Of a stretch of DNA of 64,000 nt, positions 27,630 through 32,300 are shown one piece after another. Source of the DNA: the human T2T-CHM13v2.0 reference genome, Homo sapiens. Position numbers and translations under genes: made by a program. The stretch is taken from NCBI RefSeq assembly GCF_009914755.1, contig NC_060925.1; one strand, given 5' to 3'. Each line of letters starts with the position of its first letter. Positions within the stretch are counted from its first letter, which is position 1. The notes beneath the pieces were generated by a model. That model was given only the letters and a program-made list of their open reading frames with translations. It made no database searches and was not told where the DNA came from.

Positions 27630-29072
27630 TGGATGACAGCACATCTGTTTACAGCATGGATGACTATTTTAAGCCCACTGTTGAGACCTACTGCTCAGAA
27701 AAAAAGATTCCTTTCATACTGTTACTGCTCATTGATAGTATACCTGTTCATCCAAGAGTTCTGACGGAGACATATAAGGAGATTATTGTTTTCATGCCTT
27801 CTAACACAACATCCACTCCAGCCCATGGATCAAGGAGTCATTTTGAATTTCAGGTGTTGTTATTTAAGAAATATATTTCATAAGGCTGTAGCTGCCATAG
27901 ATAGAGATTCCTCTGATGGATTTGGGCAAAGTAAATTGAAAACCTGCTGAAAAGGAGTCGCCATTTTAGATGCCATTAAGAATGTTGATATTTGGTGGCT
28001 CACGCCTGTAATCCCAGCACTTTGGGAGGCCAAGGTGAGTGGATCACGAGGTCAGGAGATCAAGACCATCCTGGCTAACATGGTGAAACCCCATCTCTAC
28101 TAAAAATACAAAAAGTTAGCCGAGCGTGGTAGCAGGTGCCTGTAGTCCCAGCTAATCGGGAGGCTGAGGCAGGAGAATGGCGTGAACCTGGCAAGCGGAG
28201 CTTACAGTGAGCCGAGATCGCACCACTGCACTCCAGCCTGGGCAACAGAGCAAGACTCTGTCTCAAAAAAAAAAAAGTGTTACCTTACCTTCAATTTTTT
28301 GCAAAAGTTTGAGAACTGGTATTGCTTCTTCTTTAAATGTTTGGTAGAATTAACTAAAAAACAATATTCTTAAAAAAAGAATGTTGATATTTTAACCTCC
28401 AACCAAGACAACTAGAATTAAAAGTGGAGCCTGAAGATGTGACTGAATTGCTGTAGTCTCATGATAAAACTTGAACAGATAAGGAGTTGCTTCTTATGGA
28501 CGAGCAAATAAAATGGTTTCTTGAGATGCAATCTGCTCCTGGTGAAGATGCTGTGAATATTGTTGAAATGGCAACAAAGGATTTACAATATTACATAAAC
28601 TGAGTTGATAAAGCACTGGCAAGTTTTGAGAAGACCAACTCAAATTTTGAAAAAAGTTCCACGGGGGTAAAGTGCTATCAAATGGCACTGCATATTGCAT
28701 GCTACAGAGAAATTTTTTTTTTTTTGGGACAGAGTTTTGCTCCTGTTGCCTAGGCTGGAGTGCAGTCCCAGCTCACTGCAACCTCTGCCTCCCCAGTTCA
28801 AGCAATTCTTCTGCCTCAGCCTCCTGAGCAGCTGGGATTACAGGCACGTGTCACCACGCCCAGCTAATTTTGTATTTTTAGTAAAGATGGGGTTTCACCA
28901 TGTTGGCCAGGCATGTCTCGAACTCCTGACCTCAGGTGATCCACCCGCCTCGGCCTCCCAAAGTGCTGAGATAACAGGTGTGAGCCACTGTGCCCAGCCT
29001 GAGAAATCTTTGTGAAAGGAAGAGTCAATCAATGGGGCAATCTTCATTGTTGTCTTATTTTAAGAAATTGCA
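27630..29072 (+). mobile_element. Tigger1 (pogo-family) transposase remnant, split by two Alus
   Basis: Translation [42 protein letters not shown], then (shifted frame) QPMDQGVI, matches the Tigger1 DDD domain. Resumes at about 28400 (gaattaaaagtggagcctgaagatgtgactgaattgctg). Confidence 0.85.
27994..28376 (+). mobile_element. AluY with an extra 80-nt segment inside its tail, flanked by a 16-bp TSD
   Basis: TSD aagaatgttgatattt at 27978-27993 and 28377-28392; see findings. Confidence 0.9.
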
Positions 29073-29367
29073 AGGCTGAGCATAGTGGCTCATGGCTATA
29101 ATCCCAGAACTTTGGGAGGCCAAAGTAGGAGGATCACTTGAGGCCAGTAGTTCACAACTAGCCTGGGAAACATAGTGAGACCCTGTCTGTACAAAAATTT
29201 AAAAATTAGATAGGTGTGATGGTGGGCACCTCTAGTCCTAGCTACTAGGGAGGTTGAGGGGGAGGATTGCTTGAGCCCAGAAGTTTGAGGCTATAGTGAG
29301 CTATGATTATGCCACTGCACTCTAGCACCTGGGCGACAGAGTGAGACCCGCCTTAAAAAAAAAAAAA

Positions 29368-32300
29368 TCAACAACTTAGCTTTACAACTTACGGAACTAG
29401 AAAAAGAACAAGGCCAGGCGCAGTGGCTCATGCCTGTAATCCTACCACTTTGAGATTGTGAAGGTAGGAGCATCACTTGAAGCCAGTATTTCAAAACTCA
29501 CCTGGGCAACCAAGAAAGACCTTGTCTCTACAAAAAATTGAAAAATTAACCAGGCATGGTGGCTTAGGCCTACAGTCCCAGCTACTCAGGTGGCTGAGGC
29601 AGGAGAATCCCTTGAGCCCAGGAGTTGCAGGCAGTGAGCTATGATCATGCCACTGCACTCCACGTAAGCAACAGAGCGAGACCCCATCTCTCAAATAAAT
29701 AAATACTCAACCCAAAGTTATCAGAAGGAAGGAAATCATGAAGATGAGAGCAGAGATAAAATAATGAATAGAAAAACAATAGAGAAAATCAATGAAACAA
29801 AAAGTTGTTCTTTAACCAAACACTTACATAAGTGTATGCCAACAAATTGGATAAACTAAATGAAATGGACAAAATACTAGCAACATAAACATACTAAGAC
29901 TAGGACTAAATCATGAAGAAATGGAAATCTGGTCAAAGCCATTTCATTGCACATTGTTTACTTTCACAAGTCTGGTTAGATGGAATACACACAAAGCAAG
30001 TTAAATGCAGTGAATTTGTTACTTACAGTTAGACCTCAAGGGACAACAGAAGACTAGGATTCAGGACAAGCCATCTGAAAGACTCAGGAAAGCTACCCGG
30101 GGTGGATGGAGGCCTGTGTGTCATGTGCCCATGTGCACTGCACCTGAGAGACCCCAGAAAGCTGCCCATCTCCCCGGGTTTTATTATTTATTTATTTATT
30201 TATTTTTGAGACATGGTCTCGCTCTGTCTCCCAGGCTGAAGTCTGGTGGCGCAATCTCGGGTCACTGCAACCTCTGCCTCCCGGGTTCAAGTGATTCTCA
30301 TGCCTCAGCCTCCCGAGCACCTGGGATTACAAGTACCCGCCATGACACCTGGCTAATTTTTGTATTTTTAGTAGAGACGGGGTTTCACCATGTTGGTCAG
30401 GCTGGTCTCGAACTCCAAACCTCAAGTGATCTGCCCACCTGGGCCTCCCAAAGTGCTGGGATTACAGGCATGAGCCACCGTGCCTGGCCCCTCTGGGTTT
30501 TATACCATGGGAACCATGGGAACAACATGACAGAGTGGGCTAAAATGTTAAAGGGCATCCTGTTTCTATGGGGGACAGGAAGAGAGCCTGGGCTTTTCTA
30601 CCCATCTCCTTTATCTTGGAATGTTGCATTCCCAGTATATTCTACAGTTAATCTTTTTTTTTTCCCCCAAGATGGAGTCTCACTCTGTCACCTAGGCTGG
30701 AGTGCAATGGCACGATCTGGGCTCACTGCAACCTCTGCCTCCTGGGTTCAGGTGATTCTCTCACCTCAGCCTCCCAAGTAGCTGGTATTATAGGCACCCG
30801 CCATTATGCCTGGCTAATTTTTGTATTTTTGTAGAGATGGGGTTTCTCCATGCTGGCCAGGCTGGTCTTGAACTCCTGACCTCAGGTGATCCACCTGCCT
30901 TGGCCTCCTAAAGTGTTGGGATTACAGGCGTGAGCCACCTTGCCTTGCCTATACACTTATTCTTAAGAAATAAGAATGAGTGAGAAACAGGAGAGAACTA
31001 GGTTGCTCGAAGGCCACCGAGAGAATTGTCCTGTACTATTAACTAATAATGAGATTGAGTCAGAAATCAAAAGTCTCTGACAAAAGCCCAAGACCTGATG
31101 GCTTCACTAGTTAATTCTACCAAGCATTTAAAGAAAAAGCAATTCCAGTTCTCAAACTTTTGCAAAAAATTGAAGATAAGGTAACACTTTTTTTTTTTTT
31201 TTGAAACGGAGTCTTCGCTCTGCCACCCAGGCTGGAGTGCAGTGGTGTGATCTTGGCTCACCGCAGGCTCTGGGTTCACGCCATTCTCCTGCCTCAGCCT
31301 CCGGAGTAGCTGGGACTACAGGTGCCCACCACCATGCCCGGCTAATTTTTTTATTTTTTTAGTAGCTACGGTGTTTCACCGTGTTAGCCAGGATGGTCTC
31401 AATCTCCTGACCTCGTGATCCACCTGCCTCGGCTTCCCAAAGTGCTAGGATTACAGGCGTGAGCCACAGCACCCGGCCAAGATAAGGTAACACTTTCTAA
31501 CTCATCCTATGAGGCCAGCCTTAACCTGACATCAAAGCCAGACAAAAACACTACAGGAAAAAACAACAGACCAATATCTCTTACGAATATTGATGCAAAA
31601 ATCCTCAACAAACTACTAGCGAATCAAATTCAGCAGCACATTAAAGGAATATACACCATGATCAAGTGGGATTTATTCCTGGGATGCAAGGGTGGTTTAA
31701 TATTGGAAACTCAATTAATATAATACACCATATTAACAAATGAAGGGAGGAAAGCATGCAATCATGTCAATTGATGCCGGAAAAGTCTTTGACAAAATTT
31801 AGCCCCCTTCCATAATAAATAAAACGGTCAACAAACTAGGAATAGAAATACAACAATTAGTAGCATTTCTATATTTGAACAAAAAACTAGGCAAAAAGGA
31901 AGTCAAGAAGGAAATCCCATTTAAATTGCTACCCAAAATTTTTAAATATCGAGGAATAAATTTAACTGAGGAGGTGAAAGACATCATGAGGAAAACTACA
32001 AAATACTGATGAAATAAATTGAAGAGGATTCAAATGAATGGAAAGACATTACATGCTCGTGGGTCAGAATTAATATTGTAAAATGACCATACTACCTAAG
32101 GCAATCTACAGATTCAGTGCAATCCCTATCAGAATATCAATGACATCCTTCACAGAAATAGAAAAATGTCTTAAAATTTGTAGGGAGCCACACAAGACCC
32201 CAAATAGCCAAAGCAATCCTGAGCAGAAAGAACAAAGCCAGAAGAATCACACTACCTAACTTCACAATATAGTACAAAGCTGTAGTAACCAAAACAGCCT

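What the first reader, a model, noticed from the sequence alone, without database searches (positions are those of the whole stretch)
27978..31496. Alu carrying the 3' flank of another Alu 3 kb away in inverted orientation (Alu 3' transduction or inverted templated copy)
Seen in the sequence: inside the Tigger1 remnant, a perfect 16-bp TSD (aagaatgttgatattt, 27978-27993 and 28377-28392) encloses AluY + A12 + an 80-nt segment (28277-28356) + a second A-rich tail. The 80-nt segment is 76/80 identical to the reverse complement of 31108-31187. That sequence is exactly the 3' flank of the minus-strand Alu at 31188-31478, which has its own TSD (aagataaggtaacacttt, 31173-31190 and 31479-31496) inside old L1 ORF2. 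The daughter therefore carries the donor's TSD copy, fixing the direction 31 kb -> 28 kb. Established: 3' transduction is routine for L1 and SVA but rare for Alu, because priming occurs on the Alu A-tail. The copied flank runs about 55 nt past a T6 Pol III terminator (caatttttt), so a normal Pol III transcript does not explain it. Inference: either a read-through polyadenylated RNA re-inserted locally, or DNA-level template switching/gene conversion between inverted Alus that pulled flank into the tail. The donor has a small internal deletion absent from the daughter.
Basis: partly seen in the sequence, partly recalled or inferred. Interest (0 to 1): 0.75.

Follow-up and report, generated by a model that had tools for sequence, protein, structure and literature searches.

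The report
Alu tail captured neighbour Alu's flank
A human Alu repeat carries in its tail an 80-base copy of the DNA beside another Alu 3 kb away, likely pasted in by DNA repair rather than carried on RNA, so it mimics the "Alu transduction" that a genome-wide survey failed to confirm.

Summary
Observation confirmed. A 16-bp target-site duplication (TSD) at an L1-endonuclease-type site encloses an AluY starting at nt 11, A12, an 80-nt copy (76/80) of the 3' flank of the inverted Alu 2.75 kb away, and a 20-nt A-rich piece. That flank is the best match found genome-wide (95% full length; others 80-89%). The copy includes the donor's TSD, so the direction is fixed.

Three new facts weaken the RNA-transduction reading. 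(1) The two Alu bodies share no non-CpG change. (2) The 'second tail' is not clean poly(A): it holds an 11/12 inverted copy of the target site. (3) The host transposon remnant is already deleted and inverted at the target.

Best reading (0.6, inferred): an ordinary AluY insertion broke in its A-tail, used Alu homology to copy from the inverted neighbour into its flank, and rejoined through a snap-back patch. True RNA 3' transduction remains possible (0.2), since a weak TTTAAA lies 19 nt before the end of the copy. Primate orthologs would decide. No function is implied.

The parts
27976..27981 (+). L1-endonuclease-type site TT/AAGA at the start of the TSD
   Evidence: sequence; motif TT/AAAA as in PMC11702581 passages
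27978..27993 (+). 5' copy of 16-bp TSD; its last 11 nt come from an inverted remnant of the host DNA transposon
27994..28264 (+). daughter AluY body, 271 nt, first 10 nt missing; 8 non-CpG substitutions of its own, none shared with the donor
28265..28276 (+). A12 tail
28277..28356 (+). 80-nt copy of the donor's 3' flank (antisense old L1): starts with the 15 non-A nt of the donor's TSD copy, T6 at nt 19-24, TTTAAA at nt 56-61
28357..28376 (+). A5 + 10-nt patch + A5; 28362-28373 is an 11/12 inverted copy of 27976-27987 (15/18 over 28356-28373) and forms a hairpin with the 3' TSD
28377..28392 (+). 3' copy of the TSD
28380..28402 (+). about 20-nt inverted remnant that replaces about 136 bp of the host element (Tigger1, name recalled); normal sequence resumes near 28403
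31108..31187 (-). donor 3' flank, template of the 80-mer
31173..31190 (-). donor 3' TSD copy (18 bp, overlaps the tail by 3 A)
31188..31202 (-). donor A15 tail
31203..31478 (-). donor AluY body, full length, with 11 non-CpG substitutions, a 7-nt deletion and two 1-nt insertions of its own
31479..31496 (-). donor 5' TSD copy

Best explanation
An ordinary AluY insertion holds in its tail an 80-nt copy of the inverted neighbour Alu's flank, likely added by DNA repair: the A-tail would have broken, the Alu-bearing end copied from the neighbour past its tail, and the ends rejoined through a short fold-back patch. SHOWN: the outer TSD and endonuclease-type site; the source and direction of the 80-mer; no shared non-CpG change between the bodies; the inverted target patch between two A5 runs; the prior deletion/inversion of the host element. 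INFERRED: (1) the host site was rearranged first, because its novel junction is present in both TSD copies; (2) an AluY RNA from some other source inserted there by L1 target-primed reverse transcription (TPRT); (3) a break in the A-tail, at or after insertion, left a 3' end of Alu + A's that invaded the then near-identical Alu 3 kb away and was extended 80 nt into its flank; (4) the other end, a few T's plus the TSD, folded back, copied about 10-12 nt of itself and was joined to the released strand with 1-2 nt of homology. The two A runs would be the two halves of one original tail. No function is implied.
For: Homology-guided entry explains why the copy starts exactly at the donor's tail and stops at an arbitrary base. 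A DNA template explains the 56 nt past T6; T6 is ancestral, present in most of the 18 other L1 copies. A nearby template explains the 2.75-kb distance. The bodies share 0 non-CpG changes and only 3 CpG decays, against 4 CpG decays between each of them and the unrelated AluY at 32520. The daughter has A at position 148 (the AluYc1 diagnostic per PMC4607524 passage) and the donor has G. Tail patch: 11/12 is reached by 93 of 20000 shuffles and by 14 of 18236 random window sites; the predicted DNA hairpin is -4.0 kcal/mol; the target is the best of four candidate sources. Snap-back synthesis makes such inverted repeats (PMC5728401 passages). L1-made breaks give target-site inversions and inserts templated from nearby genomic DNA (3 cases each; PMC11702581 passages). 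Source specificity: daughter and donor share 13 states that differ from the majority of 18 other L1 copies, including a 3-nt deletion.
Against: No ortholog data, so the two-step order is untested. Flank divergence (4/80, CI 1.4-12.3%) is no lower than body divergence (17/221, CI 4.5-12.0%; Fisher p=0.61), and the likelihood of same-age vs later capture is about equal (0.127 vs 0.119). Zero shared changes also fits a donor that transposed in the first ~20-25% of its life. TTTAAA sits 19 nt before the end of the copy with U-rich sequence downstream, as a weak poly(A) site would. The patch test is post hoc, needs 3 changes in 18 nt, and a second 11/12 match lies at 31581-31592. 148A may be a chance change: the daughter (about 20 differences) is far more diverged than many of the reference copies with 148A (0-5 differences).
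Confidence: 0.6

Rival explanations
1. True Alu 3' transduction: an RNA from the young donor (Pol III read-through, or a minus-strand Pol II transcript) ran past T6, was polyadenylated at flank nt 80 and was reinserted by L1 ORF2p 3 kb away; the patch arose at priming.
For: Textbook layout: endonuclease-type site, 16-bp TSD, element, A run, flank with the donor TSD, A run. TTTAAA lies 19 nt upstream of the end, with T-rich runs at flank nt 103 and 116. Flank and body divergence are compatible. The ZNF684 CpG-rich promoter 7.3 kb away could drive a minus-strand transcript (inference, none annotated). Co-insertion of a nearby pre-mRNA was seen once (PMC10191854 passage).
Against: It needs read-through of T6 (Alu transcripts end at the first T4 or longer run; PMC4333407 passages), polyadenylation at a weak signal, an active donor with a terminator more than 15 bp away (unfavourable per PMC4607524), and local reinsertion (about 6 kb of 3.1 Gb by chance). 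No shared body mutations. No sign that this L1 position is a recurrent poly(A) end: 22 places (31 matches; reversed-pattern control 17 matches) against 1741 intact copies; of 4 of the 21 other places examined, L1 clearly continues past the A run in 2 and weakly in 2. No AluY transduction was confirmed among 118,489 full-length copies (Halabian preprint).
Confidence: 0.2
2. One-step chimeric TPRT: ORF2p primed on poly(A), folded back on the target, jumped to the local flank (DNA or nascent RNA), copied it up to the donor's A-tail, then switched to an unrelated AluY RNA.
For: Explains independent bodies, the patch and locality in one event. Template-switching RT products with TSDs are reported (PMC11702581 section 13).
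Against: Synthesis would enter at flank nt 80 with no homology to guide it, so landing 80 nt from an Alu tail is a coincidence. At least three switches are needed.
Confidence: 0.12
3. One replication-based event (serial template switching) made the host deletion/inversion, the Alu copy, the flank and the patch together from local DNA, with no retrotransposition.
For: All copied pieces (inverted remnant, Alu + flank, patch) read as minus-strand sequence, and the host breakpoint is within 5 nt of the insertion site.
Against: It does not explain the exact 16-bp duplication beginning at TT/AAGA, the A5 next to the 3' copy, the start at Alu nt 11 without homology, or the lack of shared body changes.
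Confidence: 0.05
4. Chance similarity to a different L1 copy, or an assembly artefact.
For: The 80-mer is high-copy L1 sequence; the genome search scores only 40 of 272-296 candidates. Reads were not examined.
Against: 95% full-length match vs 80-89% partial matches; 13 shared non-majority states; junction exactly at the donor's TSD; 4 substitutions, 3 of them derived in the donor, which a mis-assembly would not create.
Confidence: 0.02

Closest known systems
L1/SVA 3' transduction (8.8% of L1 and 11.9% of SVA polymorphic inserts carry a transduction; PMC12350158 passage)
   Same: TSD, element, A run, source flank, second A run; source identifiable from the flank
   Different: Pol III element; source only 3 kb away; second tail interrupted by a target-site patch; no shared body mutations; no canonical poly(A) signal
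Reported Alu transductions: Kojima's Alu-monomer case and AluSx-WaluSat (as cited in the Halabian preprint); 386 candidate Alu 3' events in the Hoyt preprint (passage); none confirmed by Halabian et al.
   Same: Alu followed by non-Alu sequence inside the TSD; here a source Alu is matched at 95%, in register with its tail
   Different: This locus fails Halabian's entry filters (Alu must start within 4 nt of consensus; L1-derived segments excluded; T4 must lie downstream), so that survey neither lists nor refutes it. Whether it is in Hoyt Table S13 could not be seen.
Complex ORF2p insertions with target-site inversion or locally templated DNA (PMC11702581; PMC10191854)
   Same: TPRT hallmarks plus an inverted target copy plus nearby templated sequence
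   Different: Those are L1 or mRNA inserts in cultured or somatic cells, with the changes at the 5'/reciprocal end. Here they lie at the 3' tail of an old germline Alu and the template starts at an Alu tail.
SD-MMEJ / polymerase-theta snap-back insertions (PMC5728401) and Alu-Alu homology-directed repair (TEMR; PMC12350158 passage)
   Same: Short inverted copy of break-adjacent DNA; Alu homology chooses the template
   Different: Alu-flanked variants there are mostly deletions (3260 vs 80 insertions). The product here is a one-sided 80-nt capture that imitates transduction.

Membership tests
TPRT insertion (outer element) | 7-20-bp TSD | tested here: met
   16/16
TPRT insertion (outer element) | endonuclease motif at the TSD start | tested here: met
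   TT/AAGA at 27976-27981
TPRT insertion (outer element) | A run against the 3' TSD | tested here: met
   A5 at 28372-28376, short
3' transduction | extra segment matches the 3' flank of a same-family source, same orientation, in register with its tail | tested here: met
3' transduction | offspring body descends from the source body | tested here: inconclusive
   0 shared non-CpG changes; compatible only with copying in the first ~20-25% of the donor's life
3' transduction | clean poly(A) tail after the segment | tested here: not met
   A5 + 10-nt inverted target patch + A5
Pol III Alu transduction (Halabian criteria) | first T4 or longer terminator lies downstream of the carried segment | tested here: not met
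   T6 at nt 19-24 of 80, ancestral
Pol II 3' transduction | poly(A) signal 10-30 nt before the end | tested here: inconclusive
   only the weak variant TTTAAA, 19 nt before the end; no sign of recurrent use at other L1 copies
3' transduction | element and flank arrive together in evolution | not testable with these tools
   no primate genomes held (header: no relatives)
Homology-directed capture with snap-back end joining | template is a nearby homologous repeat and the copy starts at the homology | tested here: met
Homology-directed capture with snap-back end joining | short inverted copy of break-adjacent DNA at the exit junction | tested here: met
   11/12; 93 of 20000 shuffles; post hoc; a second equal match exists
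Homology-directed capture with snap-back end joining | pre-capture allele (Alu without the 80-mer) in an outgroup | not testable with these tools
   no orthologs
AluYc1 | G148A with low divergence | tested here: inconclusive
   148A present but about 20 differences from the majority of 29 near copies

The most novel reading that the evidence does not exclude
A genuine Alu-mediated 3' transduction with an identified source: a read-through RNA of a young AluY was polyadenylated 80 nt into its flank and retrotransposed 3 kb from its own locus. That would be a confirmed AluY transduction missed by the survey that found none, and evidence for local (cis) reinsertion of a SINE RNA.
Probability: 0.2. 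Interest if true: 0.72.

Novelty: new variant of a known kind. Interest (0 to 1): 0.45.

Why it matters
Whether Alu can transduce flanking DNA is disputed: one T2T preprint listed 386 high-confidence events and a later survey confirmed none. This locus has a source-matched flank and passes outside that survey's filters, so it is a clean test case. If repair-made, it shows that Alu-Alu repair can forge the full signature of a transduction, which would contaminate source-element tracing, and it defines a searchable class (Alu tail + flank of a neighbouring Alu within a few kb). If RNA-made, it is the missing confirmed example. It is intergenic (between EXO5 and ZNF684) and has no evident function.

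Tried and rejected
(1) Subfamily split between the bodies: none of the 29 nearest genomic copies shares more than 2 of the daughter's 8 private changes, so no distinct source subfamily was found. These copies were chosen for likeness to the daughter, which biases the majority line (position 148 majority A, 16 of 29). No loci were obtained for the donor's nearest copies (best 87-89%).
(2) Dating the capture by flank vs body divergence was uninformative.
(3) A recurrent antisense L1 poly(A) site at the same base was not supported; 4 of the 21 other places were examined, and two of the stretches needed a corrected script.
(4) The tail as a decayed continuation of the donor flank was the worst of four alignments.
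(5) An intermediate copy elsewhere carrying flank + tail: no non-self hit with a high-identity match over the 80-mer and tail (best candidates only).
(6) None of the 29 AluY loci is followed by this flank.
(7) Literature: searches returned no paper describing this locus or Alu-tail capture of a neighbour's flank. Coordinates were not searched. Supplementary tables of the Hoyt and Halabian preprints were not seen and may list it. PMC13174262 and PMC4859970 passages added nothing on this point. Three papers asked for were not held. Earlier scan findings were not available.

Full report
1. Observation. Every coordinate given holds: a 16/16 TSD, an 80-mer at 76/80 to the reverse complement of 31108-31187, an 18/18 donor TSD, and a 7-nt deletion in the donor only. 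Because the 80-mer begins with the donor's TSD copy directly behind the A-tail, it was copied after the donor inserted, so the direction is 31 kb to 28 kb. The 80-mer is old L1 sequence (family names L1, Tigger1 and AluY are recalled; no call names them), so a chance source had to be excluded. The genome search ranks the local flank first (95% over all 80 nt); the other 38 of 40 scored candidates, out of 272, reach 80-89% over shorter stretches (similar). Against 18 of those L1 copies, daughter and donor share 13 non-majority states, including a 3-nt deletion. Of their 4 differences, 3 are derived in the donor and 1 in the daughter. In the window the pair tops 1711 flank comparisons among 59 Alu-type ends.

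2. Are the bodies parent and daughter? Against the majority of the 29 genomic copies nearest the daughter, the bodies share 0 non-CpG changes and 3 CpG decays. An unrelated AluY at 32520 shares 4 CpG decays with each. With position 148 read as ancestral G, the daughter has 8 private non-CpG substitutions and the donor 11 plus three indels. If the daughter came from the donor, it did so within the first 20-25% of the donor's life. Flank divergence (4/80) and body divergence (17/221) do not differ (p=0.61), and same-age and later capture are equally likely. The event is old, and sequence alone cannot order it.

3. The second tail. 28357-28376 is A5, ten mostly non-A bases, A5. Its 12-nt core matches the reverse complement of the target site 27976-27987 at 11/12 (15/18 with flanks). 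Only one other place in the 64 kb, both strands, does as well: 31581-31592, about 100 nt 5' of the donor. The match is reached by 93 of 20000 shuffles and 14 of 18236 random sites; with the 3' TSD it folds into a hairpin with a 5-nt loop. The target is the best of four candidate sources. The test is post hoc, but a decayed poly(A) does not explain the piece. Either candidate source implies template switching on local sequence.

4. The target. Of 14 other copies of the host element, 12 carry the reverse complement of 28380-28400 at +16 to +19 behind the junction (16-20 of 21 matches), and 11 resume the local sequence at +128 to +138. The local copy has therefore lost about 136 bp and kept about 20 nt inverted, with the breakpoint within 5 nt of the endonuclease-type site. 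The novel junction is in both TSD copies, so it preceded the duplication (inference). One other copy (L023) has an independent Alu just behind the same site, consistent with a site that is cut repeatedly.

5. RNA route. T6 is at flank nt 19-24 and is ancestral; Alu Pol III transcripts end at the first such run (PMC4333407, passages). In favour of a Pol II end, TTTAAA lies 19 nt before the last copied base, with T-rich runs downstream. I asked whether other L1 copies switch to an A run at this point: 22 places (31 matches, reversed control 17) against 1741 intact. In 4 of the 21 other places examined, L1 continues past the A run, clearly in 2 and weakly in 2, so there is no sign of a recurrent poly(A) end. 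No minus-strand transcript is annotated here. Local reinsertion is the main cost: about 6 kb of 3.1 Gb by chance.

6. Mechanism. The outer boundaries are those of TPRT. For the inside, the direction of synthesis matters. A sense strand ending in Alu + A's enters the donor by homology and leaves at any base, which matches a copy that starts exactly at the donor's tail and ends arbitrarily. A cDNA strand would enter at nt 80 unguided, unless the donor's own RNA ended there. I therefore favour a break in the A-tail, one-ended copying from the inverted neighbour, and snap-back joining (0.6), over true transduction (0.2), one-step chimeric TPRT (0.12), an all-DNA event (0.05) and artefact (0.02). 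Steps 1-4 of that model are inferred; only the product is shown.

7. Literature. Halabian et al. (bioRxiv 2024.04.29.591526; whole main text; supplements not seen) confirmed no transduction among 118,489 full-length AluY. Their filters (start within 4 nt, no L1-derived segment, terminator downstream) would each drop this locus, and they leave Pol II co-transcription open. Hoyt et al. (bioRxiv 2021.07.12.451456; passages) listed 386 Alu 3' candidates; Table S13 was not seen. PMC11702581 (passages and section 13) reports 3 insertions with target inversions and 3 with nearby templated DNA. PMC10191854 (passages) reports fold-back target duplications at the 5' side and one co-inserted local pre-mRNA. 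PMC5728401 (passages) describes snap-back synthesis. PMC4607524 (passages) gives the 148 diagnostic and the terminator-distance rule. PMC12350158 (passages) gives L1/SVA transduction rates. Kojima's case is known to me only through Halabian's citation. Searches found no description of this locus.

8. Verdict. A real, unusual and well-anchored structure, most likely a repair product that imitates Alu transduction. It is a new variant of known processes, directly testable with primate orthologs, with no evident function. Interest 0.45.

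Noticed in passing
window 27994-28264: The daughter Alu's non-CpG changes include 5 G>A and 0 C>T on the sense strand, 4 of 5 in GG context (p about 0.05 and 0.04, post hoc): a faint APOBEC3G-like cDNA-editing pattern (signature recalled).
   Followed up: partly
window 27983-27993 and 28380-28402: The host DNA-transposon remnant has a private ~136-bp deletion with a ~20-nt inverted remnant, starting within 5 nt of the later insertion site.
   Followed up: yes
L023 (G000:C2 near 45730600) and L034 (G000:C1 near 32774050): Two other copies of the same host element carry independent Alu insertions, one just behind the same site and one about 40 nt further on.
   Followed up: no
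window 34118-34826 and 43683-44392: Two ~710-nt L1 3' ends in inverted orientation, 91% identical; the second has its own 19-bp TSD and lies in a ZNF684 intron. Probably independent insertions.
   Followed up: partly
window 31581-31592 (minus strand): A second 11/12 match to the tail patch, about 100 nt 5' of the donor Alu.
   Followed up: partly
window 32520-32815: A third AluY of similar age lies 4.2 kb from the daughter in direct orientation, 90-91% identical; it was not the template.
   Followed up: partly
L007 (G000:C1 near 93094580): Another old L1 copy has an Alu-type tail ending at almost the same L1 position as the donor's insertion; identity to the 80-mer is only 83%.
   Followed up: no
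L070, L071: In two old L1 copies a short G-containing stretch has become an A run while the L1 continues, which can mimic a poly(A) junction in pattern searches.
   Followed up: partly
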